A stretch of DNA of 64,000 bases from Cenococcum geophilum (taxonomy: Eukaryota). The position numbers and the translations under genes are program-made. Where the stretch lies: NCBI GenBank assembly GCA_050273025.1, contig CP158635.1, positions 5,208,001 to 5,272,000 on the forward strand. The letters run 5' to 3'. The notes below the pieces were generated by a model. That model did no database searches, had not been told where the DNA came from, and saw nothing but the letters and a program-made list of their open reading frames with translations. Positions 14,451-37,392 of the stretch are shown one piece after another (position 1 is the first letter of the stretch; each line of letters begins with the position of its first letter).

Positions 14451-14657
14451 CAAATTTAAGCTGAGGTTACTCCAGTATGGTTAGGGTTTTTGTAAGGGAA
14501 ATAGAACAGCAGGGGTAGATATAATGCACAAGGCAAAAGAGTGTATCGAGACGAATATACAAGGGCGGTCCACAAACGGGTCAGACGCCCCCCGCTAGTA
14601 TGTGTGTCAGAATAAGCAAGCCCTAAAGAGTTATTTTACTTACCATACTAGTAAGGG

Positions 14658-15252
14658 CCAGCGGCCCCAGTAATGAATGGATTGATATTTTGACCAAATA
14701 TCCATCATTATCATTAAGGGAGCCAAAATATTGCGATACGAATGGATATTCGCGATATAGCTTATATACGTACTTACCTGAGCTCTATCACCAGTCTTGG
14801 CATTACCCCTTTATTGCTCTCCAGCAGTTTCCTCTTACTTTTTACCCACAACTCTAACACGAAATATAGCGCATAAAATTAACACTACGCATATACTTTA
14901 GCATTCTTTTACTACAATACTATACCACGACAAGGTGTCAATCGGTAGTCCGTGCACCGATTGTAAGAAAAGAAGGACTCGTGTAAAGATTGATCTATGA
15001 AGAAAAAGAGGCTATATACACATAGCGTAGGTGCAGACAATAGGGGGGGAACAGGGGGTATACAATACATCTGAAACAGGGTGGTAGTACAACCTGATTC
15101 AAATCGACACAAGGCTTTAACTTTCCTATATATATTCATAAGCTTATGGATATTCATTCATAAGGATTTCAAAATATCCAATCGTTATCACTTACTTATG
15201 AATGAATATATCGTTAAGAAGCAATGGATATAAATATCATTGGGACCCCTGG
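14658..15252. mobile_element. Probable non-autonomous hAT-like relic
   Basis: Imperfect inverted ends CCAGCGGCCCCAGTAA / TCATTGGGACCCCTGG with repeated subterminal ATGGAT(A)/ATATCCA motifs. No TSD seen. Confidence 0.4.
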
Positions 15253-15449
15253 CTTTAAGCATTACCCTCATGTTGCACTGAGCACACAATAGATATGGCC
15301 GGAATATTTTGAGTTGGTATAATGCACGAGAGGAGCTGATCTTCTATCATAATGAGGCAGCGCGAAGTACCCTAAATAATGACAACGGACGTAAATGGGG
15401 TTGTTTTGGGGAACTTCCAACGCTGCTGGAAAGCCGCTATTACACAACC

Positions 15450-17068: not shown

Positions 17069-17070
17069 GC

Positions 17071-17937
17071 TTACCGCTTCGGTAAGTCCATCAGCAAGGG
17101 CGGATCACTGCAACCTCTATCTCGATCTCCCCATTCCAAATGCGCCATCTCCTGGCATTCGTCCCTGCATCTACACCACTTTCCACCCAGATTTTGTATA
17201 ACATAACACCTCTCGTCCATCAAGCCTGCGTTGTAGTATCCTTTCAGGCCTTCGCCAAACTTCTCTTCAGCTTTCGTCAGATTGACGTAGCACCCTCCTC
17301 TTCCGTCCTCTGGCCATCCAAAGGCCAGGTCATTCTTGATCTGCGGCTCGAAGCAATCCTCCAACGTCTCACATGCGAATTTGTGCGGACCCTGGCGAGA
17401 CTCGAAATTTGGAGGGAGATCCCACCACTGGGCTCCAACCATACGCAATTGGTTGCAGAATGCATCCTCAGCCGCGCCGCGGTGAGGCGATGACCGTTGG
17501 ACTTCCTTGTAGCGGCTGAGTCCTAGAAAGTCAATCTCCAATGGGTCCGCGTGCTTGATCCAGATGCCCCCAGTGCTGGGCCAGCAGGCAACGCGGGCAC
17601 CGAACTTCGTGATGGTCGATCGGGCCGTGGGCTCTGCAGATCTGACACTGTATTTTGCCCTCCAGGCGGCGTAGGAAAGTGGTAAGCCCTTATCATCATA
17701 CCAGGGCCCATCAGGCTTGTTGATATCCGGATTTTGATCGTCCCGCTCTTGGTGAGATATTCGTCTCGTAGGAGAAGGCGGTTGCTCGATTTTAGAGTTG
17801 GTTAAAGAAGATCGGGCATTCTGGGAGTAAAAAATGCATGCGGCAATTGCGAAGAGGATTGGAAGACATGCTAGGGAAACACGCCAGATGATTGTATTGC
17901 TTGAAGCTGTGGGTTTTAGCTTGTTTTGTTGTGGCAT
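17071..17937 (-). CDS. Hypothetical protein with one N-terminal TM/signal anchor and Cys-rich C-terminal region (~288 aa; alternative start 17979)
   Basis: Intronless open frame with normal GC. Hydrophobic IIWRVSLACLPILFAIAACIFY, multiple Cys including WCRCRDEC. Confidence 0.7.
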   Translation of the reverse strand: MPQQNKLKPTASSNTIIWRVSLACLPILFAIAACIFYSQNARSSLTNSKIEQPPSPTRRISHQERDDQNPDINKPDGPWYDDKGLPLSYAAWRAKYSVRSAEPTARSTITKFGARVACWPSTGGIWIKHADPLEIDFLGLSRYKEVQRSSPHRGAAEDAFCNQLRMVGAQWWDLPPNFESRQGPHKFACETLEDCFEPQIKNDLAFGWPEDGRGGCYVNLTKAEEKFGEGLKGYYNAGLMDERCYVIQNLGGKWCRCRDECQEMAHLEWGDRDRGCSDPPLLMDLPKR

Positions 17938-18262
17938 GTTTGTAGTTATTTGGAGGAAGATGATCCAGGAATTAGACACTGATGAATGTTGTGATACGGC
18001 TGATATGGCTGCCTGCCTAGGCAGGCTACGTGTCCTCGATCTTTCACCAGCTCGTGGGAAATAACATTCGAAATGGATTTCTGCAGCCTTTTACGAGCTC
18101 CAACACGAGAATCAAATTAGGAGATCTGCTGCAGATAAAATGATGCCACCAAGGTACAGCCAGCGAACGCCATAGAGAACGATGTGAATCAATACAATCA
18201 ATCGAATCAGCCAGAGCGTTCGATCGGGCCGACCTCCCCCCCGAACTGAATTAGACACTATG

Positions 18263-18322
18263 GACAGGCAGGCACAGACAGGTAGGGAGGCAAGACAGGC
18301 AGGACAGGCAGGACAGGCAAGC
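18263..18322. repeat. (GACAGGCAG)n-like low-complexity repeat
   Basis: Directly visible imperfect tandem of CAGG/GACAGGCAG units. Confidence 0.6.
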
Positions 18323-20003
18323 ACTAGGCCTAGTTAGGAAATCAGCACACGGCCGGCGGATCATCGGGGACACTGTAAATCGACGATTTGGAGCCTCCGC
18401 GAGAGGCTCCTCAGTCTATCGCCCGACGCCCGAGCGATCGTAGAGCTCCTATGACAGACATAGGCGGTAGGTAGAAAGGATTAACTTAGAGCTTTACATT
18501 TTAATATAATTAAATTAGTTTTATATATTTTTTTAACTAGCTATAAATAAAGTATTAGGAGTATTAAGTTATAAATAAGAGGTATTTATACTAAGGCCTT
18601 ATATAGAGAGTACTCTAGCCTACTAACTTAAGAATTAGAAATAGCTACTTAGTTTAATAAGCTTAGCAATCTAGCGCTTACCTTTAGTATCTTTAATAAC
18701 TTAAATAGCAAACTCTACGTTTCTATACTCGTTATAAAACACTACGAATTTTATATCCTATATTAGGATTAAGTTAGTTTATTGAATTACTACGCTATAT
18801 ATATTAGGGGGGAGGGGGGAGAGGTTCTTACCCTATAGTATAAACCCTAGCTAAAACCCGCTTAATAGCTAGACTTAATATACTTACTAATTTACGTAGA
18901 AGAATAGATAATAGCTGTAAGATCTACCTAATTGTTTACTCTTATTGGTAGGCTTTTATTAATAATCTACGTGCTTAAGTTAACGGGTTAAGGGATAAAC
19001 CTCTAAGGCCTTTTTTCCTAAAGTAATTTTAGCTTATTAGCTAGCGGGCCTTTAATAAACTAAATAAGATTAGATTTTCTAATAAGAAGAAGATAGGAGA
19101 TATATTTATAACTAAGAGTATTATAACGGCTCGTATAAATGCCTCTGAACCAAAGCTTGTAGATTACTATCTAATAAAGATACTAAGCTAAGGAGAAGGA
19201 AAGGGGGTCGCGAGAGCTGGTGTTAACAAATAGGTAGCGTAAGCCGCTAAGGCGCTAGTAGTAGACAAGCCAATAGTAGGCGGGCTAATAGTAAGAAATA
19301 GTACTAGATAGTATACGATAATACTAAATAGTATGCGACAATACCAGATAGTATATAATAATACTAGATAGTATACGACAATACTAGATAGTATGCGGAA
19401 TATAACAGGTAGTAGAATATAGTAAAACTTAGCAGGTGACGCGCTCTAGCACTATTACATTACCCCCCCCCCTCCTAAAAAAGCCTGCCCTTAGGCGTTG
19501 TCCAAGCTCCTTATTATTATCTAAATCGTTATAGTTATCTAACCCTTTTTCCTAGCACTTAATCCAGTTATCTAATTTGCGTAGTAGTTTAGGGAGGTTG
19601 GGGTAGGCTAGGTAGAAGTCCTGCAGCTTATAGGGGGAGTACTTAAAGTTAGATGCGGGATACCATTCTAGGTCTTTGTTGTGGCCTACCTAGCTTATAT
19701 AGTATTTTAAGACCTTACGGTCCTTTTTAACCGCTAAGATTTCTTTAACTTTTTATTCTTCGTCCTCTGCAATCTAAATAGGTAGTAGGGGGTTATTATA
19801 TTGCCTAGGTAATAGATTATCCGTAGCTTTTTATAGCCGGTTTAGGGAAAAGATAGGGTAGATCTTTATTAATTCTGGTAGCTTAGCCTTAAAAAAGTAT
19901 CTTACTTTTTAAAGAATCTTATATAGGCTAGCTATTTAATAGTCTATCTTATAGCTTAGCCTCTAAGTTTTCTAGTTCTTTATTAATACCTATACCTTAT
20001 CTC

Positions 20004-23000
20004 TATTACGGCACTAGTAAAAACTAGTAGATTATAGCTAATAGATATTAGTGGATTATGGCGGACAGTTATAGACAGTCGTAGATAGTCGCAGACAGTT
20101 TTATACAGTTTTAAATAGTTGCCGTTACGTAACCAGAGGATCGTATATAATATTAAGCGGCGCCACCCTCTATCTCCTTTCCTCTCTTTAGCTTTAGATC
20201 CTTATTTATAGACTACCAATTATATAGGCTTGCGCGTCCCTTTTACTATACTTATACCTTAATTAACTAAATCGCTAATATTATCTAAAGCTAGTCTACT
20301 CTTCTTCCTAAGAAGGAACTTAAAAATATCTATAGACTATAAATAAGAATAGAACACAGAAATAGACCTAAAGACTATTACTAAAACTTAAAGAATAAAA
20401 TAGAACTAGAGGAATAGAAAAGAATAATAAGACCTATAGAATATGTATAGACTAGAACCCCTATAGAATTCTACTAGAAGTTACCCTAATAACTATATCA
20501 CTATGCTAAGAACTATAGCGGCCGGCAAAGCAGCCGTAGGACTCTTAAATACCTCCAATAGTAAAACAGCAACTGACTTAAACCCCTAGGTGAAGCTTAT
20601 AGCAGCCAATGCTAAAATTAAACAACTTTAAGAGCTGCTTAAAGCTAGAGAACCCCTTATACCTAGTAAAGAGTTATTAAACACCTAGAGACTTACTATA
20701 GTCCTTAAGGCCCTAGCCTAACTTATAGCATTAGCATTATTGCGGTCCGTAAAGGTCGCGGACCCCCTATTGCTTATAGACGGAACCAACCCTATATTTA
20801 ATAATTAAAAGCTTTAATTATAGGATAAGCTCGAAGTTAATACGGACTACTTCCCTACTACTTAGGCTAAAATGGCCTATGTTTTTAGCCGTACTAGTAA
20901 GGATATATAAACGCACCTACGTCCACAATACGCATAGGACTTAGTGGATCCCTTCCTCTCTAGAGAAAAGATAATTATATACCTATCTTCTATCTATAAG
21001 GACCCCTTTAAAGTATAAAACGCCTAACTTAATTATAAAAGCCTAAATATGAAAATAATAGAGACCTTCTTAGCCTTTTAGACCCGCTTTCTATATCTAG
21101 CCGGCCAGGCTTAAACTCCCTAGGAAGACCTAATACTAGACCTATTTAATAAGCTTACTCTAGACTTGCAGCAAGCCGTACTACTAGTTTTTACTACTAT
21201 ATAGACGCTAAAGGAACTTATAGACTAGTGCTTAGCTATTAACTAAGACCTCCGCTAAATTAAGGTACGCGCCAAACGGTATAAAGCCAGAAACCCTTTA
21301 AATCAGACTATAAGTAATATAAGAACGGCCCGTAATGCCTCAGCACGATTAATAACCCCTATAGCACCACCTGTACAGCCCGCCGCCAATTTAGCAGCTA
21401 GCCGTACGGCCAGTCCTACTATAGGCCCGGCGAATGCTTAGCTAATATATAGCAACCCCTATATATAGGCCCTTAGTAATTAAGGAGCTTGCTTTTCTTA
21501 TGGTTAAAAAGGTTACCATATAAAGGATTACCTAATAAACATAAAAGTGGACAAGGTTCTGTTAATCCAGGAGGATAGCGCGAAATTAGAAAAAGAGAAA
21601 CCCTAAAGGAAGACTCCTCTCTAGGGTTAAAAGGGATTAATATATTAGATATTAATCTAGGTCAGCTAGTTAGTAGATGAAGCTGCACTATCCCTTATAC
21701 TTTATTCTATAATAGATATTAAGTTTTAACCTTTACTTTAGCTAACTCTAAAGCAAATACCTTTACCTTAATAGACACTTAGTGTGCTATAAAGCTAGCT
21801 AACTTTCTAAATATACCTATTAAAGAACTGCCTAAACTAATTCCTATTTACGGGTATAACGGGCGGATAGGGCTACCTATTATAACTATCTTACGGATTT
21901 ACCTCCGTGTTAATAGACAAAGGTAGTATAATATCCCCTTCCTTATTACGGACCTAGGTAGCTATAATATAATTTTAGGGCAAAAATAGCTAGCCTATTT
22001 AGGCTTACAGCTTAATATACGGAGTAGACGGCTTATCTGGCCTAAAACCCTACCCCTAACCCCTTCCTTTATAAAAGAAATTAGCATTATAATAGAAAAT
22101 CTCATACGGCCCTAGATTAATACTATTTACTAGGCTAATGCTATGCGTAGGGACTAGGCTTTTAAGAAAGATATATAGCTTAATTCGCAACGGATCCGTA
22201 TACTATGTTGCCCCTAGACTACCTATATTACGCCACCCGCATTAAAGACCTAAAAAGTTAGTAGTAACCTAAAAAAACCCCTATAGAGAGCTTAGGCCCT
22301 ATATAGCTATAAAGAACAGTAAGGGACGTTAGATATTATACTAAACTAATAAATTAGAGGGATAACCTATAGAAGATAGAATAGGAGCTAAGAAAGATTA
22401 TAAACCCTAAACCGTAAAATACGGTCCGGAAAATAGCTATAAGGAAACCAGCGGACCTCCTACTAGTTAATATCTGCTATATTAGTGCCGTAGGATTCTA
22501 CTAGAACTTAGTTTAGCCTAATACCGTCGCCTTTATAACAAGCTTATACAAAATTAATTAAATAATTAAGGAAAAGGGAAATAAGCTTAGCGGATAAGAA
22601 AGCGAGCTTATAGATAAGGAACTAGTAGAATAAAAGCTACCCTATTAACACTAGAAATTTAAAAACGTATTCTCTAAAATAGTATCTAATATACTACTAC
22701 CTTACTAACCGTATAATTATAAGATTAAGATTAAGTAGGGCAAGGAAAACACCCTTAGCTTTAGCCCCCTTTATAAGCAGTCTATTACCAAATTATAGGC
22801 CATAAAGTAGTATCTCATTAATAACCTAAATAAGGGCTTTATTAAGCCTAGCTAAGCCCCTTTTGCCTTACCTATTCTCTTTATTAAAAAGCTAAATAGA
22901 GGACTCTGCTTCTGTATTAACTACTATAAGCTAAATAATATAACCCGTAAGGACCGCTATCCGCTACCCCTACTTAATAAGACTCTGGCCTAAATAAGTA

Positions 23001-26000
23001 GAGCTAAGGTCTTTATAAAGCTTAATATTTACTAGGCCTTTTACTAAATTAAAATAGACCCTAGGTCTAAAGATCTTACTATATTTTAGACCTATTACGA
23101 AACGTATAAATATAAGGTACTCCCTTTTAGACTAACTAACGGACTAGCTACGTACTAGCGGTATATAAATAATATACTCTTTAACTACCTTAATGACTTC
23201 TATACGGCCTATTTAGATAATATTATAATCTACTTTAAGAATAAGCTAGAATATAAGGAGCACGTCTATAAAGTCCTATAATAGCTCTACAAGACTGGCC
23301 TTTAGGTTAATATTAAAAAGTTAGAGTTTAGTGTTAAGCGTATAAAGTACCTAAGTTTTATTATTAGTACGGACGGAATTAAAACCAACCCAGAAAAGAC
23401 GGCTGTAATTAACTAGTAGGCACCCCTACGGACCGTAAAGGGGGTACAATTATTTTTAGGTTTTTATAACTTCTACTAACGCTTTATTAAGAACTATAGT
23501 AGGATCGCCTAGCCTTTTAACCGTCTTACTAGAAAAAACCAGCCCTTTTACTTTAACGCTATATATAGGCAGGCCTTTAATAAGCTTAAGAAACGGCTAG
23601 TATCGGCTCCCCTACTTGCCTATTTTAACCTAAAACGGCCCTTAATACTAAAAACTAATACCTTAGACAGCGCAATAGCTAGTATTTTTCCCAGAAGTAA
23701 CCGGACGGAGAGTAGCACCCTATTATATACTATTTAAAGACTATAATAGATACTAAGCTAAACTACCACGTCCATAATAAAGAAATGCTGGCTATTATCT
23801 CTAGCTTTTAGCACTGGCGTATATAGCTAGAGGGGACCCCTAAGCTAATTAAGGTAGTTTTAGATTATAAGGCCCTAGAATACTTTATAACAACTAAGGC
23901 CCTTATAGCCCGGTAGGCACGCTAGGCGGATACCCTATCTTAGTTTAACTTCTTAATTATATATAGACTAGGCGCTACAAACTATACGGACGCTCTTATA
24001 AGGCGTAAGTAAGACTTAGATAACTAGACGGCTATAAAGATCTTATTATAGACCTAAACGCTACTATAACTAAAACACCTTAACCCCTAGATATAGGTAG
24101 AACTAAGTATAGACTCTTTAGGCGCCAAGATATATTCTATTAACTCCTCTAAACTTAACCTTATTAATAAACTACTACAGGCTAACTAAATAACCCCCTC
24201 TCTATAGGAGTACTATAAAAGGTAAAGAACGTTACTAGCCTATAGTCCCTTAAAAACGGACTACTTAAGCACTAGAAACGGCTAGTAGTAGCTAAGGAAT
24301 AGAACTTACAGACCTAGCTTATTACCAAAGCTTATACCTAGGTCTCTACGGCCTACCCTAGAAAAAATAAGACCTATAAGATTATTAGCAACCGCTACTA
24401 CTAGCCTAGAATAGTTATAGATATTAACTACTATATACAGAACTATAACGACTACCGTAGATCTATAATTCTACAAGACAAGACCCTAGAACTATTAAAA
24501 CCACTCTTAATACTAGAACGCCCCTAGCAGTATATCTCTATAAACTTTTATAAACTACCTACGGACCGTAACGGATACGATATATTTATAATCCTAGTTA
24601 ACCGCTTTAGCAAGCGCCCGTTCTTAATCCCCTGTTATAAAAATATTAATACTAAAGAGGCGGCCTAACTATATATCTACTACGTCTACTAAATTTACGG
24701 ACTACTAGATACTATTATATCCAATTACGGGCCGTAATTTATTTCGGCTTTTTAGAATAAGTTTACCTAAATCTTAGGCATTAAGCTAAAGCTTTTTATA
24801 GTATACTACCCCCAGATAAATAGTTAGACAGAAATTATAAATCAATACTTAGACTAGAGACTTCGGCCCTTTATTAACTACTTTTAAGATAACTAGGCCG
24901 AACTGCTACCCCTAATAGACTACGCCCAAGCGACCCTACCTTACAACTCTATAGGATTTGCCCCTATTTAGCTAGAAATGGGCTACTTACCTTATATAAG
25001 CTTTAACTAGGAAAGACCAAAGGGACCCAGACTATACGCGAAAAACTATCTTATAAGGAAGCCTAGTAGTACGCTAAGCGCTTAGAAGAAGCTTAGATAG
25101 TAGCCCATACAAATCTAAAAAAGGCCCAGAAATTAATATAATAGTAGGCGAATAAACATAGGCAAGAGCCTAACTTTGCTATAGAAGATATAGTCTAGGT
25201 TATAATAAAGAACTAAAAGACGGAACGACCTAGCCATAAGCTAAACTATTAGATAGTAGGACCGTATAAGGTTCTTAAGAAGATAGGCAACGCGTATAAA
25301 GTAAAGCTCCCAAATTTAATTAAAGTTTACCCTATTTTTTCTCTAGATAAACTACGAAAAGCCGCAAATAACCTATTACCTAAACAAAAAAATAAACCTC
25401 CCCTGCCGATCTAAGTTAATGGTAATAATAAATAGGAAATTAAAGAGATACTGGCCTGTAAGCTTATAAGGGGAACGTTAAAATATTATATTAGTTAGAA
25501 AGGGTATAACCTAGACCCCACTTAGTACCCTATATAGAACTTTATAGGTAGTCCCTATAAGCTTTAGGAATTTTATAGTTATTACCCCAATAAACCCGGA
25601 CCCCTAAAGTACCTTAATAAGTAGATAAAGTGCTAGAATAGCGAAGATAATAAGCTGCCTATTAAGCATAAAGATAAGAATACCCTATAGATATAATATG
25701 GACGTATAAAGCCTAAGGGCAGGCTTTTTTAGAGGGGGAAGTAATGTTACGGCACTAGTGGAAACTGGTGGATTATGGCTAGAAGGTCTCCCGCCAGCGT
25801 GCACGTCCCTACAGCGTGCACGTGCATTTACCCACAAGATAGAAAACTTCAAAATTAATTATCTCTATTAATTCTTTACTAAATCACATAAAAATGAATT
25901 CATTATCTTTACAAAACGTGCCTCTTTTAGCTCCTACAACGCTAGTACAACAGCCCCATTATATAACACTCGCAAGGCGTGCATAAGGTAAAATTAACCC

Positions 26001-28173
26001 ACGGCATATTTACCGGGACAATATCTTATTACTATCGGCACAACAGCAGCTCACCCTAGTAAATGAGATTAATTAATTAACTAATTAAGGGCTACCTCCT
26101 ACTTGTGCAATAGTCCGAAACTTTGCTAAGAATATAGTTAAAAAACGCCCTGGAAAAAATTGGGCGTATAAGTTTATTAAGCGGCATTAAAAGGTCTTAA
26201 AATCTGGCTTCCTAGTGGCGGCAGATTTAAGCCATAAAAAGGCGGATAATGCATATTAATATACTCTTTATTTTAAGCTGGTTTGTAGCCTCCTAAATAC
26301 TAGTATTTATACTAATATTTTAAAGGTTTGGGCTAAAATTAAGCAATATAACGTCCTTCCGCAAAATATATATAATATAGATAAAAAAGGCTTCCTAATT
26401 AGCATCCTTTAGAAAGTAAAGAGGATATTTAATAAGGATTTAGAAAAGAGGGGTAAATTAATTAGTACTAGCTAGGATGGCAATCGTGAATAGATTATAT
26501 GCATGGCAACAATCTGCATAGATGGGATATATATTCCACCCTCCCTTATCTACTAAGCCATAACGGGCAACATCTAAGATACCTAGCTTAACGATTTTAA
26601 GCCTACTGAGCTAGATACGGCCTATTTTATAAGTTTACCTTTAGGGTGGACAAATAACGAGCTAGGGATAGCGTAGTTAATTACTATTTTTAATTACTAT
26701 ACTAAAGTAAAAGCTAGGCACGGGCGTAACTGGCGGCTTCTCTTTATTAACAGGTATAGTAGCCACGTTAATATACTATTTTTAGACTAGTGCCTTAAGC
26801 ATAGGATCCTAGTAGCAGTATACCCCCCCTATTTAACTTATTAACTCTAGCCTCTAGACATTAGCCTTTTTAACCCTTTAGTAAACTACTACTCCCAGGA
26901 GCTTAATAAATAGATCTATAATACGGTAGGGCTTTACCATATTACAAAGAGAGAGTTTTACGGCTTATTTTAAGCCGCCTAGCGACGTACTTTTATAGAA
27001 ACTAATATTCTTAGCGGCTGGCGTAAAACCGGCTTATAGCCCCTAGATCTAGACCTAATACTTAACTAGGTTAAGCTAGCGGCCCCTAAGCGGCCCAGTA
27101 CGAGTGGATCTATATTATCTACATCGACTATATACTTAGTATTAAATATCCGTTAGGTACGGAGACTTATAAAGTATATTAGTAGTACTAAGCCGTTATA
27201 TAATGCGGCTAAACTAGATAACTTAGTGGAGAAGATAGTAGCCAAGAACAGCATTTTATAAGCCCGAATTAAGGGGCTTAAGAATGCTATTATTATTAAG
27301 AAGAAAAGGCGAAAAAGAGGGAAGCTGTATATTAAGAATATTTATATAATAAATAAAGGTAAAGCTACCTTCTAGTTACTAACTAAACTTAAGACTACAA
27401 AGCAGGCTATTAGGGACGAGAAGGCTATAAAATAATAAATAGCGCTAGAGAAAGCCTAGGGAAAAATTCAGAAATAGGAAGAGAAGAAAAATAATAAGAA
27501 AGTAGTAAAACAAAGGCGTTAAGATCGGGAGAAGTTAGTACGGCAAAAGAAGTAGGCAAAAGACGATAAAACTGCTTAACGTTTAGCCTCATTATAGCTT
27601 AAAAGAGACTTATAATAATAAGTTTAGAGCCCTCTAAAGTAGTTTAGAGGCTCACCGTTAAAGAAACGGGTAATAATAATGGTGGAGTCTAGTGATAATA
27701 AAGAGGTAGTAAAAATCCGAAGCCCGCGGCTTTAGCGGCAGAGAAACGCGCCCGCTTACCTAACCGACTATATAGTTAGATAGAAGTTTCGTATAGTATT
27801 CCTAGTTATAACTTTAAAATTTAAGCCTATTTAATGCAGTAGTTAAATTATTATTAATTAATTAGAGTAATGCGTTGTTTAAAAAAATGTGGTGCAAGCC
27901 GTAGGGACGTGCACGCTGGCGGGAGACCTTCTAATAGATATTAGTGGATTATAGCGAATAGTTGCAGATAGTCGTAGATAGTCGCAGACAGTTTTATGCA
28001 GTTCTAGATAGTTGCCGTCACGTGACCAGAGGATCGTATAGAACGTCGAGCGGCGCCGCCCTCCGTCTCCTTTCCTCTCTCTAGCTTTAGATCCTCGTTT
28101 ATAGACTACCAATCGTATAGGCTTACGCGTCCCTCTTGCCGTGCTCGTGCCTCGATTGACTGAGTCGCTAACA
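20004..28173 (+). mobile_element. Ty3/Gypsy chromovirus B1 nested in the A1 integrase 3' region
   Basis: 5' LTR 20004-20280, 3' LTR 25745-28173 (interrupted); TSD ATCTC; PPT AGAGGGGGAA before 25745; degraded gag zinc knuckle, RT (AYLDD at ~23210), RNase H, integrase and chromodomain. Confidence 0.92.
25782..27931 (+). mobile_element. pogo/Fot1-like (Tc1/mariner) DNA transposon inserted in the B1 3' LTR
   Basis: Perfect 31-bp TIR GAAGGTCTCCCGCCAGCGTGCACGTCCCTAC; TA TSD; RIP-degraded DDE_1 motifs (YNMDEKGF-like, DGNREWI, GWTNNELG, QPLD). Confidence 0.93.
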
Positions 28174-29076
28174 ATCTCCTACTTAAAAATCTATCTTATG
28201 ACGATGTTAATTTACATCGGACTCCTTCTCTTACGCCTTTTTTATAATTGTTTACGCGGTCTCCTAGGCTCCGTATATTCTCTTAGCAAATACCTAGGCC
28301 TCTTCACGGCTAAGGCGTTTATAAGCCGTAGTGGGTTCGGTAGGCCTATCCCAATTAAAGGATATTTGGGGTGTATACCCGTTAAGCAGTTTAAATGGCG
28401 ATATCCCTATACTATTATAGGGGAGTATAAGCTGCGCGTAGTCTATTATAGGTAGTAATTCCAACTCGTTGTCCTAATAGTAGTCTATAAAGGGGCGTAG
28501 TCGCTAGTTAAGATATTGGTTTATAATCTCGGTTTAGCCGTCCATCTAAAGGTAGAATATAGTAGAGAGTTTAATCTTAATCCTAAAGATACGGCAGAGT
28601 TTATTTTAGAAATCTGATATAAACTAGGGACTATAGTTAGAAATAATTAATTTAGGGGCGCCGTAGAATTAATAGATGTTGTTAACGTAGAGGCGGGCTA
28701 TATCCTTCGCAGTTATAGTCTTAAAATAAGGGAGGGAGACGGATTATTTATATAGCCGGTTAATTACTATAAAGGCCACATTATGGCCGTAGGCGTCCTT
28801 TAGAAACGACTTAAAGTCTATTATAATATATTGCTAAGAGCATTTTAGAATAGGCAGTAGTCGTAACTACTTAGGGGTTTAATCCCTAGGAGTATCTACG
28901 CGTTTATAGGCGTAGTAGTTTTTAATAAATCGTTCTATATTAGATAGAAGTCCTTACTAGTAGTAACGGGGCGCTAATAGTTAGTGGGTTTTATCTTAAC
29001 TAGGGTGTGCTATAGAGACTTAATAGTGAGCTTCGCGGATTAGCTTTGTTCGTAGGTTATTAATATCTAGGACTAT

Positions 29077-29291
29077 TGTAGTGGGGTAAAATGGGCCACT
29101 GTTTAGTGCCTTGGCATTTTCCTGTATATATCGAGCCTTCGGCTTCTCTCCTTCTCCCTATCACGACCTACCGGAATACATTCTTTCCTTTCTTCTTACT
29201 GACTGCTTTCCTACTAATTGATTACGACTAACGACCGACAGACAGACAGCACTGTGACTTTCCTATCTGAGAGTGGTCGTACCCTCCCACA
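29077..29291. mobile_element. Solo LTR (215 bp) inserted in A1 pol
   Basis: TG...CA ends; flanking duplication CTAT; removal restores A1 sequence matching A2 at ~52261; much less TpA-rich than its flanks. Confidence 0.8.
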
Positions 29292-32200
29292 CTATAAGCC
29301 GTTTTTAGTATAAAAGTAGTCCTTTTTCTATTTTTAAATTAGGGTTACCTTTTATGGCTTAATTACGGAGGGCTTTTAGGGAGTTAGCTGTGCGGTTTAT
29401 AGTTCGGATATAGTTAACTAGCCCAATTAGTTTATTTAAGACTTTTCCTTCTAAGGGTGCTAACTTATTCCGTTTAGAGTCTATTTTTTTTTTAAGAATT
29501 TGCGAGTTAAGCTGTTTGGGGTAGAGGAGGGCGCGCGTCCGGTATTAGGTCTTTAGCTTATCCTAAGGTTCTACATCTTATTCCCTTTAGGTTAATATAT
29601 TAGCTTTAGTATTTTGCTTACTAGAATAATATATAATTATAAAGAAGAATTAGGAGAGTATTTCGGCCTAATAGGCTTATTATTTAGTAAGTTGCTTTAT
29701 AGTTATAAAATACTCTAGGGCTTTATAATCCGTATATATTTTAATCTAAAAGTTAGTACCTTTAAGCTCTACACGCTATTAGGACAACGATTAGATAATA
29801 GCTAGCATTTATTTATTATATACTTTATAGTTATACTTAGCTAGGTCCATTATTTTTAAGAAGAAGGCAATAGGGTACTATTCGCCGTCTAGGCATAGCT
29901 ATAATAGGATTTCCGCTATAACTCTATTAGAAGCGTCTGTTTCTAGCATTAATTTAAGGTCCAAATTATAGTAACGAAGGATTAGAGCAGAGATAAGTCG
30001 ATTTTTTAACTCCCTAAAGGCTTCTATATAGTCATTATTAAAGATAAAAGGCGTATCTTTCTAGGTAAGTTATATAAGAGGCTTTACTACCATTCTATAG
30101 TTATGGATAAACTAATAATAGAAGTTATAAAAGCTAAGGAAGGACTGGATCCCTTTTGCGGTATAAGGGGGTTTCTAGTTATAGATTGCTTTAACCTTCT
30201 CTAAATTAACTTTAATTCCGTCTATAGTAATAATAAACCTAAAATACTTTATACCCTAAATTTATATTTCTTAATATTAACTTATAAGCCTGCGTTCCGT
30301 AGTATCTTTAAAACCTTTTTAATATAAACCTAGTGCTCTAGTTTATCGTCTAAGTATATAATAATGTTATCTAGGTATACCGTACAGAATTTGGTAAGGT
30401 AGTTAAATAGGACGTTATTTATATACCTTTAGTACGTAGTAGGCCTATTTATAAGTCTAAAAAGGAGGACTTTATATTTATAGGACCCGTAACGGGTACG
30501 GAATATTATTAAGTCTTTAGAAGTAGAATCTATCTAAATTCGGTAAAAAGCTTAACGGATATTAAGTTTAGTAAAGATCTTTACCCGGCTTAGACGTGTA
30601 AGGGTCTTATTAATTAAGGGGAAAGGGTACTAATCCTTTTAGGTAATAGCGTTTAACTTCTAATAGTCAATACAAAAGCGTAGGCCTCTATTAGGCTTTT
30701 TTATAAATAAAATAGGTAAAGTAAAAGGGGCTTAACTTAGCTCAATAAACCCTTTATTAAGGTTATTAATTAAGTACTGCTTTATTGCTTTTAGCTTATC
30801 TATTAATTATTAGTAAAGGGGGCTAAAGCCTAACAAGTTATTGGCTTCTAATTAAATCTTATAGTTATATGTCTAGTAAAGTAGTAGCGTATTTAAAGCC
30901 GCCTTTAAGAATGCGTCCTTATAATCTGCGTAGATAGTAAAAAGGAGGCGTTTAACTAGTTCCTCGTTGGTTTCCTTAGCTAGCTTTTCCTCCCTATTAT
31001 TAATAATTTAATTAATCTTATATAGGCTTGTTATAAAGACCTTATTATCTTTTTGGTATATTTTAAAGTAGAACGCTATAGCGCTAATTGCGGTAATATC
31101 TACTATAGGGGGGCTATATAATAATAAGGACGTACGCGACTTTAGGGGCTTCTGGGGTATTAGCGATATTATTACTCCTTTTAGCCCCTATTATATCTTA
31201 TTAGTATATTCTTTTCTATACCAGTTAAATCTACGCGATTTAGACATTATCTATATTACTATCTATCCCGCTTCTATATGTAGAGTTTTCGTTAACTATA
31301 GCGCTTTAGGAAAGTATCTTCACTAGTATAAAAGAATTCCTTCCGGCCTCGCGACAGGCATCTTCTTAGGTAAAGGCTAGGTTACAATCGGTCACATTCT
31401 GCTAATAGGTAGGGTTAGCTTTCGCGGCTAGTGTCTTACGGTTAGTTCGGATTTCCCTAATAAAGGAGGGTAATTTTAGTCTATCCTCTAACCAGACGAA
31501 CTATCTTTACCGTATATTTAACTAAATATTAAAGTAAGATATCTATTTTTGGCTAAGGATTATATTATAGGAACCTAGGTCTAGAATATAAAAGGGAATG
31601 CCGTATTAGCATTGTCTATTAGGGAGATATATAACTTTAAGACGTGGGTAACCGGCTTGCCGGCTTAACCGTTATAGCCTTTTACTTAAATAGGCTTCTC
31701 TAGTTAAGTAGCTTTTATATTTAGAAACTTGGCAACGTTAATTATATAGGTAGTATTTATAAAGGCAAAGCTATTTACTCTAGTATTAATAAGGGCGGTT
31801 AAGTTAACTCTATATCTATTTTAAGATACTATATATAGAACTATAAAGTATTTTCCACTCATTAACTAACTTAGATTAATCTCTTTAAGATTAATAAGAT
31901 ACCCTAGGGGGGAGTCTTTCCGTAGGGTTCTTTTCCTAACTTATTAGACGTTTCTCCTTCCTCTATCTTCTTAATATTGCCTATATCCTTTAGCTCTAGG
32001 TAAGATAAGGTAAAGTAATCCTCTTTATTACAGTTATAGCATATAGCCAAGGTAGGGTTAATTAGGGTATTGCGACGAGTACTAGTTGGGGGTGTAGTAC
32101 GTAGCTAGTCAGGCGAGGCTCGCTAGTGCGTAAATGTGACCGCTTTTAGTATAAGAGCGGTTATAGCTTATCTTCCTACTCTAGCTCCTATAGGTGTAGC

Positions 32201-35080
32201 TAATAAGTTTTAATTATTCTAGGGTTGCTTCTGCCGATTAGGGTAGGCGTTAATTCGCTTTAGTTCTAAATCTAATAATAGGTAATAAGTTGCGAGTCTA
32301 TTGTATAATAGAAGGTTATTTAAGGTTATAGCGATCTTCTCTTATAGCTAGATTATTAGCTTATTATATAGGTCTAATTAGTAGTTCTTAAGGAGAACCT
32401 AGCCTTCTCCTGTAAGGTATAGGAATTAAGTTTAGAATTTAGTAAAGGGTTAGTTTGGTTTTATTATTAGGCGATTATAGTTATACTAGGCGTCCTATAC
32501 TTTATTTAGGTTAATATAAATAGCCGCTAGGTGCTGTATTATCTCGTTAACAGATATAAATTAGATAGGGAAATTGTCCTCAAACTTAGCTTAAAGGTAT
32601 TATTAGGCGTCCCCAGTAGTTCGACCAAAGAGGTAGAGTATTTTAGCTTCTTTAGAAAGGAAATAGTTATAGTTAACGCGGAGCTTTCCTTATACTTAGA
32701 TCCTCTAATTCTTAAAGGTAGGGTTTATCCTGTTAGATAGTAGTTAGGGGTTAGGGAGCTTAACGGGCTTTAATTACTTCGTTATTATATCCGTACTCCC
32801 TAGTGTATTATATTTAGTAGAGTAAATAGGTTAGCTAAGGCTTTAAGAAGGGGAAGCTAGGCTATTTTATAGGGCTATAAGGCTTTCTAGGATCTCTTAT
32901 AGGGTCTCTTATATATTTCTTACTTTAAGATAATTAGCTTTCTAGCTAGCTACAAAGGCGCAAATCTACTCGCGTACGTTTATAACGTTATTATTATCTT
33001 TAATTTCTGATCCTAATTAGATCTTAGGTTTCTCTTAGGTAAAGGCAGCTCTCTTAAATAAGCTTGCTTTAGGTGCCATTATTAGCTTCCTAGGGTTCGT
33101 TGGTATTATATACTTTAGTTTTAATTCTAGGGGTATAGGTTTAGTCCTATCTAGCTTATAAGGTAGGATATTATTTAGGCCTTCCCAGGTAATATAGAGT
33201 TGTTTTAGTGTCTAAGTATAGCGCGTTAACGCGTTGTTATAGACGAAGTTTTCTTTTTAGGGTGGGATATTATTAAGGCCTTCCTAGGTAATATAGGGAG
33301 AGTTTAGTATAATATAACGGCTTGTATAAATGCCTCTAAACTAAAGCTTGTGGATTGCTATTTAATAAAGATACTAAGCTAAGGAGAAGGAAAGGGGGTC
33401 ATAAGGGCCGGTGTTAATAAATAAGTAGCGTAAGCCGCTAAGGCGCTAGCAGTAGACGAGCTAATAGTAGGTGGGCTAATAGTAAGAAATAGTACTAGAT
33501 AGTATATAACAATACTAGACAGTATATGGCAATACTAGATAGTATATAACAATACTAGATAGTATACGGAATATAATAGGTAGTAGAATATAGCAGAACT
33601 TAGTAGGTAATGCGCTCTAGCACCATTATAAGTATTATATTTACGGGTATTATAAGGCAGTTATAGCGCCAGCTAGCTATAAAATCGTTTTAATACTAGC
33701 TAATAGTATCTAAGGCTGCTTTTAGATTATCCTTAACGCCATTAATACCGTATACTATATTCTTAATAAAATCTTTTAGCGGTAATATATTATATAGGGT
33801 AGTACTAGGATATTCTTTAGTATATCTATATAGGAAAGAGGTAAAGAGGTAAAGTAGGGTAAAATCCGGCTACCGTAGTACGTTAATTATAACTTACTAG
33901 TTCTATAGCTCTACCCTCCTCTAGTAAGCTCTCTCTATCTTTAGCTTAAGAAGCTTTTAAACTTTAGTGCCATTAATACCCTCCCTACTTTACTTAAAAC
34001 CCTTCGCCCTTACTATAGTAAAAAACTAGCAAGGGTTTTTCTTTTTTAGTATTTTATAGAGAATATATAAGGTAAGTAGAAGTTAGTATAAGAAGGAAGG
34101 GAAGAAGGAATATAAAGATAAACCTAGAGAAATATATAGGTGGAAAAGCCAAGAAATAGCAACTAAAAGAAGAGAGGATAGAAGTTAAATAGTAGGTAGG
34201 TAAAATAGAGCGAATAAATACAGCTAAAAGGAGGTCTTATAATAAGAGGGATAATGTACCTCCTCTTTAACTAAAACCTTTAGGGACGCTATATTATAAA
34301 ATAGATATAGCTTAGGATGGACAAATACTCTATTTTAAGGAAGGCCTAGTTTTAAGAACCCCGGGGGCCCTAAACGCGGCCCTATAAGATTATTATATAG
34401 AGTTAACAATTTGTATTATAAGGACGTAGCACTTTTAAGGAATTATTAGTTGCTAAGAGCAAGAGCGTAACTAAGTAGCCTAAGTAGGGCCTAAGCAGCG
34501 GGTAACGTAAGGGTACTATAAGAGTATATATTAGATCCCGCCGCGCTTACAATAAGTTCGCAAGCACTCTTAGTCTTTTTAGCCATATGGCGACGTGAGG
34601 CGGGACACGTTAGAAGTGCTTAGCGCCTAAGTAAAGCGGTAGAGTCGGATTTCGCCAAGGGGAGTTTTGGTCTATAAATACCTAGGTACTTAATAGTAAG
34701 CGTATTAAGGATTGTTCGTGTTAGCAATGTACAATATATATTAGACACGTAATAGGAATTTTAATAGAAGTACTCTAAAAGTTCTAGTTATACTATATAT
34801 ATAGTAGCAGACTTTTAGAGGATAGGCTAGATAGACCTCTTAGATAATAGACCTATTAGCTAATAGTATCTGGAGACTATCCGGATAGTCTTCAGATAGT
34901 CTTAGCAAAATCCCCTTAATATACTTATACTTGTAATATACCCCCTAATAGTAAATAAAAAAATTTTAATAAAAATTTATAGAGCTTATAAAGCGCTTTA
35001 AAATAGTACTACTTTTATTTAAATATCCTAAAGATAAGTAATATTATATAGATATAAAGCTTATAAGAGTTCTACGGAAT

Positions 35081-35328
35081 TGTCACGGGACTTATACGTT
35101 CTCACGTCCCTGCGCGTTTTGACATTCTTAACCCGTGCTCACGTTCGTCCTAAGACACCTACGCACGTTCCCCTACAACCCCTATTTATACCCGTACCTA
35201 ACCTATTCTATTCTATTTTTTATCTAAATATCTTTATATTAACCACGCATAGTTACGCGTACGTAGCCTTCTTCAATTACTACCCCGTTTAGTACATTGT
35301 ATTCTAGCTTATACCCACTTCCGTAACA
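35081..35328. mobile_element. Solo LTR (248 bp)
   Basis: TGTCACGG...CCGTAACA inverted termini; 5-bp TSD GGAAT. Confidence 0.9.
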
Positions 35329-35349
35329 GGAATAAGGCTTAGGGGGAGC

Positions 35350-35500
35350 CGCGTATAAAGCTCCGTAAAAGCTCTATATAAGCTCTATACAAAGCTCTAC
35401 GTATAAAGGCTCTATATAAAGCTCTATATAAAGCTTTTATATAGAGCTTCTATAGTAGAGCCGTTATATATAGAGCCTCTGTATAAAATACTATATATAA
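35350..35500. repeat. Degenerate ~12-bp minisatellite (AAAGCTCTATAT)n
   Basis: Directly visible tandem units. Confidence 0.6.
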
Positions 35501-37392
35501 AAATTAAGATAGTAAAAAAAAAGAGGATACCTAGTAGTTAAATTTAGTAACTTTTATCTATTCCTTATTATCCTCCAGTTCTATAATCTAACCCTTACCC
35601 TTTAGTACTTTTACTGCCGCCGCTATAGGCTAAGAATTTTTATTGTATAATAAACATTAAGTGTTACGGACCTTATATCGGCAGTAGTAGAACTACTAAA
35701 AAGGGATATAAACAGACTAGTGGTGGAAGCACGGGAGGCGCTAAAACTAGTAGAACTATGGGATAAGGGATAGCTAAGTTATATAATAAGTCACGAGAGG
35801 AGATCTGTTAATCTATAAGATCTGTAAGATCTATCCACGTACCTTACGTACCTTACGTACCTTACGTACTTAGTATTTCTTAGGCGCAGTATTGTGTATT
35901 TAAAGGACTATAGTCCCTACCTAGATAGTTCTCTTCTTTATAGTAAATCTTAGAATATAATTAGAGTTAATCTTTTAGGCGACTACTCTACTGGTTATTT
36001 ACGTTATTAACTAATCTATACCTATATACCTAGCCTATTAACAAGTCTACCGTAGTATTTCCTATAAGGCTTTATTATACATTCACTACTAAGGATATGA
36101 TAAAAAAAGTTAAATAATATGCCACCAAAAGCAGCAGCTATAACGCCGTTAACGGCAGCAACTACATCGGGATTAGGTAACGACACTAGTATAGCAAATA
36201 CTAACTCTTAGCTAGTTACCGTTAGACAGCTATAGGAAATAGTTAATTAATTAATAGATAATAATAGGATATTTAAAGAAAGGATTAATGGAATCGGAGT
36301 AGCTAAGGTTAAGTTACCCTTAATTAAGCGATTCTTAGGGGAGAAGTTAAAACTTAAAGGATTCCTTATGTAAATGCACTTTAAGGTTATATAGAAAGGA
36401 GTAAAACTAGGAACGCCTATAGATTAAGTCACTTACGTAGGATTGTTCTTAATAGGAAGGGCACTTAAGTAGTTTAAACTTTACCTTATGGAGGTATAGG
36501 AATACGGTATAATAACCACTAACTAGGAGGTACGGTATATATTCTTAAGTTAGAGCAGGTTCGTAGAATACCTAACGCAAATATTTAGAGACCTGGAGGT
36601 AACTACTACGGCGAAAAGAAAACTTTAAAACCTAGTATAAAGGACTTTAGCAATTAAATCCACGACGTAGTTTTAGATATTAGCTATATAAGTTAAATGG
36701 AACAATAAGGCGCTTATAGTATAGTATAAGCAAGGACTTAAAGCGAAAGTTTAGGATATAATTATTCTAATAGAAGATACGGATACTCTTAGGGATTTAA
36801 TTAATTAAGCAATTAAGATTAATAATAGGATCTACTAAAGAGAGCAGACTAAAAAGGGTTAGGATAGAGTTCTATAGTTATATAAAACGCAAAGTACGTA
36901 ATAATAAAGTTAAAGTTAAAAACTATAGTATAGCGCAGAGCTAATAGACCTAAGTAGTACTAAAGAAAATAAGAAATAGAATAAACGACTATAGAAACCC
37001 AGAGAATAAGGATTAAGTAATTAAAGGTTTAAGAAGTAAAGGCTAAACTAGGGATCTTAATAGTAGAAGACATTTAGGCGAACTCTATAGTAAGAAAAAT
37101 GGTTTAAAGAAGAAGCTTATATAAATTATAAAAAACAAGAATATTTTATTAGAGATTATAGAAGTAGGTAAAGTTACTATATAGTAAAAGGAATAAGACT
37201 AGTAGACAATATATATAGATAGAAGGATAATAATATGCTACGGGGAATAAAAGAATGTTTAATTAAAAGTTTCGCGTTTTGTTATAATAACGTATACCAA
37301 ATTTATAAGGACGCTAAGTATAGCGTAAGCTATTGGCTATAGGAGCCAAAATTATTAGAGTTTAGAGGAACTAATAAACTATCTCGTAAATC

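What the first reader, a model, noticed from the sequence alone, without database searches (positions are those of the whole stretch)
18490..34052. Hidden Starship captain (DUF3435 tyrosine recombinase) relic split by a 14.5-kb retrotransposon nest
Seen: the sequences flanking Gypsy A1 join seamlessly at TSD AGTAT into an intron-containing minus-strand gene absent from the ORF track. Reversing C>T/G>A changes gives WNDFTAGWR..IP.N.TLSVTN|FI.GPLA, RVDDW..SSARIGEYIESSCRAGSGRGLYYR|D..F.VFRNEHGNAEFA.Q..KDAKG and PEHSLYEGL..PLICNPMLP. Known: these match my recollection of DUF3435 captains, which head giant cargo-carrying Starship transposons in Pezizomycotina. Inference: the repeat block grew on a dead Starship 5' end. 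The captain stops near 18490 and lacks its C-terminal catalytic half; heavy RIP suggests it was once multicopy or was hit by RIP spreading from the neighbouring repeats.
Basis: partly seen in the sequence, partly recalled or inferred. Interest (0 to 1): 0.85.

Follow-up and report, generated by a model that had tools for sequence, protein, structure and literature searches.

The report
Dead Starship-type recombinase gene fragment
This is the mutated front end of a recombinase gene of the kind that moves giant fungal "Starship" transposons, cut in two by later retrotransposon insertions; it is an ordinary genomic fossil with no working part left.

Summary
Removing 19122-33635 (a nested Ty3/Gypsy block plus one copy of the 5-bp duplication AGTAT) joins the two flanks into one minus-strand gene relic. 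The joined sequence aligns without a gap at the joint to a relative's genomic DNA. It is collinear with residues 1-252 of intact 667-800-aa DUF3435 proteins.

The decay is almost all RIP. Of 231 codons aligned to the closest intact protein, 117 are identical and 86 more can be reached by reversing only C>T/G>A changes. Shuffled controls give 40 +/- 5.5.

The intact relatives pass Pfam DUF3435. One of them is listed by its exact gene ID as family 6 (Enterprise family) in the published starfish catalogue of Starship recombinases.

Only family-profile positions 3-272 of 767 survive. The part carrying the HxxR motif and the tyrosine is absent from all 64 kb.

Cargo lies 3' of a captain, which here means left of 18481. 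That side holds un-RIPped, conserved ordinary genes. No boundary, cargo or Starship accessory gene was found. Pseudogenised and RIP-degraded Starship recombinase genes are already described. Interest is low.

The parts
33636..34052 (-). Relic, 5' part. The start codon at 34052-34050 is now ATA. This part covers residues 1-116 of the closest intact protein, with one intron-like gap of about 24 codons.
   Evidence: tblastn P0004 aa 1-116 -> 34052-33633, E 2e-26. Family HMM positions 3-118 -> 34046-33627, i-E 2.2e-16. RIP composite index 1.88.
33631..33635 (.). Right copy of the target-site duplication AGTAT of Gypsy A1
   Evidence: Read directly. It matches 19117-19121.
19117..19121 (.). Left copy of the target-site duplication AGTAT. 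It belongs to the relic's coding exon.
   Evidence: Read directly. The alignment to L001 is gap-free across 33636|19121.
19122..33630 (-). Ty3/Gypsy element 'A1' (14,509 bp including what is nested in it), inserted in the relic's exon. LTRs at 19122-19457 and 33310-33630. A second copy of the same family lies at 48019-54204.
   Evidence: LTR pair 84% identical over 339 columns; 29291-33476 matches 52274-48065 at 82%. On the minus strand: RVT_1 at about 30704-30255, RT_RNaseH_2 at about 30039-29743, Integrase_H2C2 at about 29058-28900 (coordinates converted by me from residue numbers).
20038..28171 (+). Second Ty3/Gypsy element nested in A1. LTRs at 20038-20278 and 27931-28171; exact ends and TSD not determined.
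   Evidence: LTR pair 84% identical over 241 columns. RVT_1 at about 22907-23365, RT_RNaseH at about 23686-23946, SH3_Tf2-1 at about 25187-25360 (coordinates converted by me).
26056..26190 (+). Trace of a Tc5/pogo-type DNA transposase inside the nested element
   Evidence: HTH_Tnp_Tc5 E 1.7e-4, 21.9 bits against a cut-off of 22.2, so just below the curated threshold. Extent not mapped.
18481..19116 (-). Relic, 3' part: the end of the interrupted exon, two further intron-like gaps, and exons up to about residue 270-285 of the relatives. It holds the mutated SSARxGEYIES, GLYYR, VFRNEHGNAEFA, RDAK and PEHSLYEGL..PLICNPMLP stretches. Relative to L001, 25 nt are missing after 18684, which shifts the frame.
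   Evidence: tblastn P0004 aa 122-205, 206-230, 239-252. HMM positions 120-205 -> 19065-18832, 206-232 -> 18757-18677, 238-272 -> 18624-18520; the last is weak, i-E 0.083. Deletion. RIP composite index 1.69.
18480..18481 (.). Truncation point: an abrupt switch from RIPped relic (GC 0.28) to un-RIPped host DNA (GC 0.51)
   Evidence: Sequence. Alignment to L001 is lost here while L001 continues for another 1,300 nt. RIP indices.
17071..18087 (-). Nearest host gene on the side where cargo would be expected. It is a conserved hypothetical protein, not RIPped and not part of the relic.
   Evidence: 23 homologues at E<=1e-3. The four that a source names come from three Dothideomycetes species and share 35-47% identity with the query; no Pfam family.

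Best explanation
A gene for a DUF3435 tyrosine recombinase of the Starship superfamily, closest to the Enterprise family (starfish family 6), once lay on the minus strand with its start at 34052.

What the enzyme does when intact is taken from the literature, not shown here. It cuts and rejoins DNA through a catalytic tyrosine and so excises and integrates the element it heads.

This copy is dead several times over:
1. RIP changed most CpA, TpG and CpG sites. That destroyed the start codon and created 17 in-frame stops in the 231 codons compared.
2. A Ty3/Gypsy element inserted into an exon and made the AGTAT duplication. It was itself later hit by a second Gypsy, which carries a pogo-type trace.
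3. A 25-nt deletion shifts the frame.
4. Everything 3' of about residue 270-285 has been removed, probably by a deletion whose left end is at 18480/18481. This includes the HxxR, His and Tyr catalytic positions, the Cys/His-rich tail, and whatever cargo followed.

Shown here: gene identity, the split, the RIP spectrum, the truncation, and the absence of the remainder from the window.
Inferred: that the copy was once complete at this locus, that it headed a cargo-carrying element, and that it was multicopy when RIPped.
For: Route to the family:
- phmmer of the X-read translation against 1.84 billion representatives gave 3 hits at E<=1e-3: P0001 6.2e-8, P0002 5.2e-6, P0003 6e-4.
- A search with P0002 gave 45 proteins at E<=1e-3. 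Of these, 27 carry precomputed PF11917 and 2 carry a Chromo domain.
- A fresh Pfam scan of 13 homologues found DUF3435 at E<=1e-3 in 13 of 13. Twelve are above the 25.8-bit cut-off; P0019 is below at 23.2 bits.

Match to the relic:
- tblastn and a 22-sequence family HMM hit only the two flanks, collinearly, covering HMM positions 3-272 of 767.
- One blastn alignment crosses the joint without a gap.

RIP as the cause of decay:
- Against P0004, 117 of 231 codons are identical and 86 more are RIP-reachable. Only 4 are reachable by the opposite changes.
- The total of 203 compares with shuffles at mean 40.4, sd 5.5, maximum 59 of 500. Fifteen of 17 stops are RIP-reachable.
- C>T plus G>A make up 107 of 188 DNA mismatches.
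- CpA changed in 27 of 37 cases and TpG in 26 of 35, against CpT 8 of 61 and GpG 2 of 33.

Family assignment:
- P0032 carries JGI protein number 138645 in its locus tag. It appears as cyloli1_138645, fam06, in supplementary tables S3/S4 of PMC11162782.
- P0004 is 53% identical to P0032 over 437 aa. The paper's median identity is 35% within families and 26% between families (section 20).
- Chromo domains in P0019 and P0040 match the paper's remark that several Enterprise-family captains carry them.
- Most homologues have HDFR, the canonical HxxR that the paper gives for clade 2.

Absence of the rest: plus a search in a RIP-collapsed alphabet. There the best C-terminal hit scored 58 bits, the reversed control 61.9 bits, and the N-terminal part 178-474 bits.
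Against: - The relic itself gives no Pfam hit: 0 families for 6 of 6 frames. A word-indexed search with it found nothing among 1553 candidates. Membership is therefore transitive.
- Only about 50-70 residues of the Pfam DUF3435 domain region survive. In P0004 the domain match starts at residue 202.
- No element boundary, direct repeat, terminal inverted repeat, 5S rDNA remnant or cargo was found.
- None of the 14 ORFs scanned, out of 35 listed left of the relic, is a Starship accessory gene.
- In the part of the starfish supplement that I could search, the 6 members of the cluster that probably contains P0006 and P0007 appear only in the gene tables S3/S4, not in the element table S7. The file was cut when stored.
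- That P0006 is EJT69642.1 and P0007 is colsub1_7654 is inferred from species, gene length and their 63% mutual identity.
- The window's own genome could not be searched, so multicopy status is untested.
Confidence: 0.8

Rival explanations
1. The fragment was never a complete gene at this locus. Either a 5' piece of a recombinase gene arrived already truncated, for example as filler DNA in break repair or carried inside another repeat, or the gene was a solitary recombinase with no cargo. The starfish architecture allows 'zero or more' cargo genes.
For: - The 3' end stops abruptly against intact host DNA, about 400 bp from a conserved gene.
- There is no trace of the rest of the gene anywhere in 64 kb.
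- The starfish study predicted 10,771 recombinase genes and expects that not all are active and that many may be pseudogenes (sections 11 and 29).
- For two Gloniaceae genomes it lists 37 and 5 such genes and 0 elements.
- Two earlier notes of this scan describe isolated DUF3435 fragments in other genomes.
Against: - The fragment begins exactly at the gene's start codon, and 1.6 kb of unassigned RIPped upstream sequence follows. That fits an in-situ 5' end better than a random internal piece.
- A simple deletion explains the sharp left edge equally well.
Confidence: 0.25
2. It is a Crypton-type or otherwise non-Starship DUF3435 recombinase gene from a small transposon, not a Starship captain.
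For: - The family has relatives in Basidiomycota: P0025, P0027, P0031, P0039, P0042, P0044.
- The starfish supplement gives the two of these that I looked up (rhoros1_675464:701269 and thegan1_3190050:3066379) no family, 'n.d.'.
- DUF3435 repeats were at first annotated as Cryptons.
- No cargo is seen here.
Against: - Captain recombinase domains are reported to form a clade distinct from Cryptons.
- The starfish recombinase models pick up this family and place Pezizomycotina members in fam06.
- P0004 is 53% identical to a listed fam06 member.
Confidence: 0.08
3. The un-RIPped genes left of 18481 are surviving single-copy cargo of the same fossil Starship. The element body would still be there, with only the 3' two-thirds of the captain deleted.
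For: - By orientation they lie where cargo would be.
- Single-copy cargo would escape RIP.
- Degraded Starships that keep cargo but lose the captain are described.
Against: - The genes are of housekeeping type: an IPO5-like importin-beta, a DUF2433 plus fungal RRM protein, and a conserved Dothideomycetes hypothetical at ortholog-like 46-50% identity.
- None is DUF3723, a ferric reductase, a patatin or an NLR (14 of 35 ORFs scanned).
Confidence: 0.05
4. The similarity is chance, produced by permissive de-RIPping of AT-rich junk.
For: - Reversing T>C and A>G freely can create many residues.
- There is no direct Pfam hit.
Against: - Unmodified sequence already gives tblastn E 2e-26 and blastn E 7e-125.
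- Shuffled controls reach at most 59 of 231 against the observed 203.
- Changes in the opposite direction explain only 4 mismatches.
Confidence: 0.01

Closest known systems
Starship 'captain' tyrosine recombinases of the Enterprise family (starfish family 6, clade 2; type element Enterprise of Podospora)
   Same: - It belongs to the same protein family, as judged by its closest intact relatives. P0032 is listed as fam06, and P0004 is 53% identical to P0032.
- Most relatives have the canonical HxxR form (HDFR).
- Some relatives carry a C-terminal Chromo domain, as reported for Enterprise-family captains.
- It lies in AT-rich, RIPped DNA.
   Different: - Only about the first 40% of the gene is left, and that part is riddled with RIP stops.
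- No cargo, no direct repeats and no 5S rDNA or palindromic target could be recognised.
- No reference Enterprise captain was available to align directly.
Pseudogenised or RIP-degraded Starships (e.g. the Wallaby captain pseudogene; 'Derelict' degraded regions; a possible RIP-degraded Tangerine copy in Xanthoria calcicola)
   Same: - Inactivation by premature stops and RIP.
- Smaller transposons nested in the element.
- Persistence as a fossil in a large RIP-affected region.
Sources: passages of PMC11162782, PMC9156397 and preprint 10.1101/2025.11.25.690456.
   Different: Those cases keep cargo or whole elements. Here the opposite survives: a piece of the captain and no recognisable cargo.
CryptonF DNA transposons (fungal tyrosine-recombinase transposons of a few kb)
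   Same: They are tyrosine-recombinase DNA transposons of fungi. DUF3435-bearing repeats were at first annotated as Cryptons.
   Different: - Published trees use them as the outgroup to the Starship recombinases.
- The relatives of this relic are in the Starship recombinase catalogue.
- Nothing here shows a compact element with termini close to the gene.

Membership tests
Pfam DUF3435 (PF11917) protein family | Significant match of the sequence itself to the PF11917 profile | tested here: not met
   The X-read translations of both flanks gave 0 families in 6 of 6 frames at E<=10. Heavy RIP explains this, as does the fact that only about 50-70 residues of the domain region survive.
Pfam DUF3435 (PF11917) protein family | Homology to proteins that pass the PF11917 gathering score | tested here: met
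   Twelve of 13 homologues score above 25.8 bits. tblastn of P0004 to the relic gives E 2e-26 and 1e-13. The RIP-corrected match is 203 of 231 codons.
Active tyrosine recombinase | Complete catalytic set (R-K-H-R-Y pentad as cited in PMC11162782 section 20) in an open frame | tested here: not met
   HMM positions 273-767 are absent from the window, including the HDFR stretch and the invariant Tyr (P0004 Y375). There are 17 stops in 231 codons and a 25-nt frameshift.
Starship superfamily recombinase, Enterprise family (fam06) | Placement in the family's clade of the reference recombinase phylogeny | tested here: inconclusive
Proxy evidence: P0032 is cyloli1_138645, listed as fam06. P0004 is 53% identical to it. 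The probable identities of P0006 and P0007 with fam06 entries are unconfirmed.
Starship element | Captain at the 5' end with cargo downstream of its 3' end | tested here: not met
   Downstream of the truncated 3' end lie ordinary conserved genes with no RIP. The architecture is taken from PMC11162782.
Starship element | Defined boundaries (direct repeats, with or without TIRs) and an empty site in another genome | not testable with these tools
   The window's genome and its relatives are not held. The 1.6 kb upstream of the start shows only short AT-rich repeats, a 27-nt-arm palindrome and no 5S rDNA.
Starship-like region (Gluck-Thaler et al. 2022 definition) | DUF3435 gene co-located with DUF3723, FRE, PLP and/or NLR genes | tested here: inconclusive
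   None of the 14 ORFs scanned, out of 35 listed at 1-18600, is one of these. The RIPped 34-64 kb was not scanned against Pfam except through the recombinase HMM.
Ty3/Gypsy LTR retrotransposon (the inserted nest) | LTR pair, TSD, and RT - RNase H - integrase order | tested here: met
   LTRs and the AGTAT TSD. RVT_1, then RT_RNaseH, then Integrase_H2C2 on the minus strand for A1. RVT_1, RT_RNaseH and SH3_Tf2-1 for the nested element.

The most novel reading that the evidence does not exclude
The truncated captain marks the exact edge between core genome and a 45-kb RIP-affected block. The boldest reading not excluded is that this edge was made by the Starship itself. An Enterprise-family element, perhaps guided to heterochromatin by a chromodomain as in some relatives, inserted at the border of a repeat island. 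A deletion or rearrangement with a breakpoint inside its captain then removed the whole element body. On this reading the relic is the scar of a Starship-associated structural change rather than a passively decayed copy.
Probability: 0.1. Interest if true: 0.45.

Novelty: new member of a known kind. Interest (0 to 1): 0.22.

Why it matters
It matters little on its own. It shows that a Starship-type recombinase family once active in this fungal lineage was silenced by RIP and buried under retrotransposons.

This is useful as a calibration of the method.

For Starship biology it adds one more pseudogenised recombinase gene of the kind that catalogues already expect in number. It also shows that such relics are invisible to direct Pfam scans and need RIP-aware or transitive searches. 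That matters when counting captains in RIP-rich genomes.

Tried and rejected
- Direct Pfam scan of the raw flanks with X at stops: nothing.
- Word-indexed protein search with the relic, longer proteins only: 1553 candidates, none at E<=10.
- Search of the window's own genome for PF11917: no genome is held. Intact or further copies therefore could not be sought.
Replaced by two three-frame scans of the strand that searches indicated as coding, one for each element.
- Accession look-up for P0006, P0007 and others: the database was switched off. The link to EJT69642.1 and colsub1_7654 stays inferential.
- Metagenome scan with the 15-sequence alignment: no sufficiently conserved stretch. The single-protein scan gave one 2.2-kb contig with no flanks. 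The genomic context of relatives could not be seen.
- Search for 5S rDNA, a known Enterprise-family target: none in the window at gathering score. At E<=10 in 34000-36200 there were only spurious hairpin hits.
- Search for the missing C-terminal part by tblastn, by HMM with filters off, and by a purine/pyrimidine-collapsed blastn: nothing above control.
- Idea that the family is the basidiomycete-enriched 'Family 11': dropped. The Pezizomycotina relative P0032 is listed as fam06, and the two basidiomycete relatives I looked up are 'n.d.'.
- Idea that it is the lichen 'Tangerine' family: no passage seen supports it.
- This scan's earlier notes hold nothing for this genome or this sequence.
Full report
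SETTING. The window has two parts. Positions 1-18480 have GC of about 0.38-0.56. They carry ordinary fungal genes: a DUF6594 gene, a DUF2433 plus fungal-RRM gene, an IPO5-like importin-beta, and at 17071-18087 a hypothetical protein. That last protein has 23 homologues at E<=1e-3, and the four that a source names come from three Dothideomycetes species. From 18481 to 64000 the GC falls to 0.25-0.40 and RIP indices are high: TpA/ApT 1.7-2.05 and (CpA+TpG)/(ApC+GpT) 0.16-0.39. The left part gives 0.86 and 1.21.

An LTR pair lies at 19122-19457 and 33310-33630, 84% identical over 339 columns. It is flanked by AGTAT on both sides, at 19117-19121 and 33631-33635. Its interior encodes RVT_1, RNase H and Integrase_H2C2 on the minus strand, so it is Ty3/Gypsy. 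A second LTR pair at 20038-20278 and 27931-28171 encloses a plus-strand Ty3/Gypsy with RVT_1, RT_RNaseH and SH3_Tf2-1. That element also carries a weak Tc5/pogo-type HTH hit at about 26056-26190. Another copy of the first Gypsy family lies at 48019-54204.

When 19122-33635 is removed in a script, one blastn alignment runs from 33899 to 18551 against L001 positions 1-898. L001 is the genomic DNA of a metagenome relative. The alignment is 70% identical over 907 columns, E 7e-125. It has no gap at the 33636|19121 joint.

WHAT THE GENE IS. The raw translation with X at stops has no Pfam hit in any of 6 frames. A word-indexed search with it also failed. An exhaustive phmmer search of window 18487-19119 (minus strand) against 1.84 billion representatives gave three hits: P0001 at 6.2e-8, P0002 at 5.2e-6 and P0003 at 6e-4. 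These are themselves short or decayed. P0002 and P0003 touch DUF3435 only below threshold, at 14.6 and 18 bits against a cut-off of 25.8. P0001 touches nothing.

Searching with P0002 gave 45 proteins. Of these, 27 carry precomputed PF11917 and 2 carry a Chromo domain. A fresh scan of 13 found DUF3435 in all 13, with 12 above the gathering score, and found Chromo in P0019 and P0040.

tblastn of all 47 proteins then held against the window produced 37 HSPs. Every one lies in 34052-33612 or 19080-18580. For P0004 they are collinear:
- aa 1-116 on 34052-33633 (E 2e-26)
- aa 122-205 on 19059-18832
- aa 206-230 on 18757-18683
- aa 239-252 on 18621-18580

A profile built from 22 homologues, with filters off, hits only these stretches. 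It covers positions 3-272 of 767.

RIP IS THE CAUSE OF DECAY. Across 231 codons aligned to P0004:
- 117 are identical.
- 86 of the 114 mismatches can be reached by reversing only C>T or G>A.
- Only 4 can be reached by the opposite changes.
- 15 of 17 stops are RIP-reachable.
- The total of 203 compares with shuffles at 40.4 +/- 5.5, maximum 59 of 500.

Six other homologues gave the same pattern at lower levels. At the DNA level, C>T (54) and G>A (53) make up 107 of 188 mismatches to L001. The changes concentrate at CpA (27 of 37), TpG (26 of 35) and CpG (25 of 47). CpT (8 of 61), CpC (7 of 38), ApG (12 of 65) and GpG (2 of 33) are little affected. The start codon now reads ATA.

A 25-nt stretch present in L001 is missing after 18684. 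This accounts for the frame shift between the RDAK and PEHSLYEGL stretches.

WHAT IS MISSING. The homology fades at about 18520 and the RIPped sequence ends at 18480/18481, while L001 continues for another 1,300 nt. No trace of the remainder exists anywhere in the window:
- tblastn at E<1e-3 finds none.
- The HMM with --max at E<=10 finds none.
- blastn in a C/T- and G/A-collapsed alphabet gives a best C-terminal hit of 58 bits, against 61.9 for a reversed control and 178-474 for the N-terminal part.

I read SSARxGE as the first arginine box and RDAK as the lysine. This is from my own recollection of tyrosine-recombinase motifs, not from a call. Under that reading, those two positions are present but mutated. 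The HDFR (HxxR), KHAGH and HY.PNN (invariant Tyr) stretches of alignment A1 and the Cys/His-rich tail are lost.

STARSHIP OR NOT. I read passages and sections 20 and 25 of the starfish paper (PMC11162782). [quoted passage not shown] The upstream boundary usually lies within 2 kb, and at most about 7 kb, of the start.

Its supplementary tables S3/S4 are held in a copy that was cut when stored. They list cyloli1_138645 as fam06, the Enterprise family of clade 2. That number is the JGI protein number in the locus tag of P0032. P0004 is 53% identical to P0032 over 437 aa. The paper's medians are 35% within families and 26% between them.

Two further entries in the same tables are fam06: colsub1_7654 (2,525 bp) and its 50%-cluster representative gaetri1_EJT69642.1 (2,351 bp). 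By species, gene length and their 63% mutual identity, they probably correspond to P0007 and P0006. I could not confirm the accessions.

The paper also says that several Enterprise-family captains carry Chromo domains and that clade 2 keeps the canonical HxxR. Both hold for this family. The two basidiomycete relatives I looked up are listed with no family, 'n.d.'. The six members of the EJT69642.1 cluster appear only in the gene tables, not in the element table S7, as far as the stored file goes.

So the gene family is the Starship recombinase family. An element is not shown. By orientation, cargo should lie left of 18481. That DNA is un-RIPped (composite index -0.97 at 17000-18480) and holds conserved ordinary genes. 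Of the 35 ORFs listed there I scanned 14.

Upstream of the start, 34053-35659 is unassigned RIPped sequence. It has short AT-rich repeats, one palindrome with 27-nt arms and no 5S rDNA remnant. From 35660 another LTR-like repeat begins. Most of the 45-kb repeat block therefore lies outside any element this gene could have headed.

HOW IT MOST LIKELY CAME ABOUT. A copy of an Enterprise-family-type recombinase gene sat at the edge of, or seeded, a repeat-rich region. It was RIPped while other copies existed. Two points favour this over RIP spreading from neighbours. Its RIP index (1.7-1.9) exceeds that of the neighbouring retrotransposons (1.4). The host DNA that touches it is untouched. P0001 and P0003, decayed relatives in public data, show that the family left other dead copies. 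A Gypsy insertion, a second insertion into that Gypsy, a 25-nt deletion, and a larger deletion ending at 18480/18481 completed the wreck. The order of these events, and whether cargo ever existed, are inferred.

PRECEDENT. Pseudogenised captains such as Wallaby's, RIP of Starships, and degraded Starship regions are in print. I saw passages of PMC11162782, PMC9156397 and preprint 10.1101/2025.11.25.690456. Two earlier notes of this scan describe similar isolated DUF3435 fragments in other genomes. I did not check those.

VERDICT. The claim of a dead Starship under the repeat block is only partly supported. This is a new member of a known kind, of low interest.

Noticed in passing
window 48019-54204: A second, plus-strand copy of the same Ty3/Gypsy family as the one that splits the relic. 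It is 82% identical over 4.2 kb. Its own LTR pair at 48019-48228 and 53994-54203 is 92% identical.
   Followed up: partly
window 35660-36072, 61533-61927 and 63796-63995: A 0.2-0.4-kb repeat family, 79-88% identical, with copies 26 kb apart. It is possibly the LTRs of a further large nest that spans much of the right half of the window.
   Followed up: no
window 550-1738 (-): A DUF6594 gene read in three adjacent ORFs covering profile positions 1-91, 86-149 and 143-238. The ORFs are separated by a stop or a frame change. These could be introns or a broken gene.
   Followed up: no
window 35350-35480: A cluster of short AT-rich direct and inverted repeats (units like TAAAGCTCTATATAA) that folds into hairpins. 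It draws only sub-threshold, spurious microRNA-family hits.
   Followed up: partly
window 34856-34909: A near-perfect palindrome with 27-nt arms, 85% complementary and no spacer, about 0.8 kb upstream of the relic's start codon. The Enterprise type element is reported to target a palindrome, but nothing links the two here.
   Followed up: no
window 44001-47000 and 62001-63000: The lowest GC of the window (0.25-0.29). At 44-47 kb there is also a strong positive GC skew (0.30-0.33). Content not examined.
   Followed up: no
window 2732-3244 (+): A weak, sub-threshold aspartyl-protease (Asp_protease_2) hit, 18.9 bits against a cut-off of 24.3, in the otherwise ordinary left part. It may be an old retroelement trace.
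   Followed up: no
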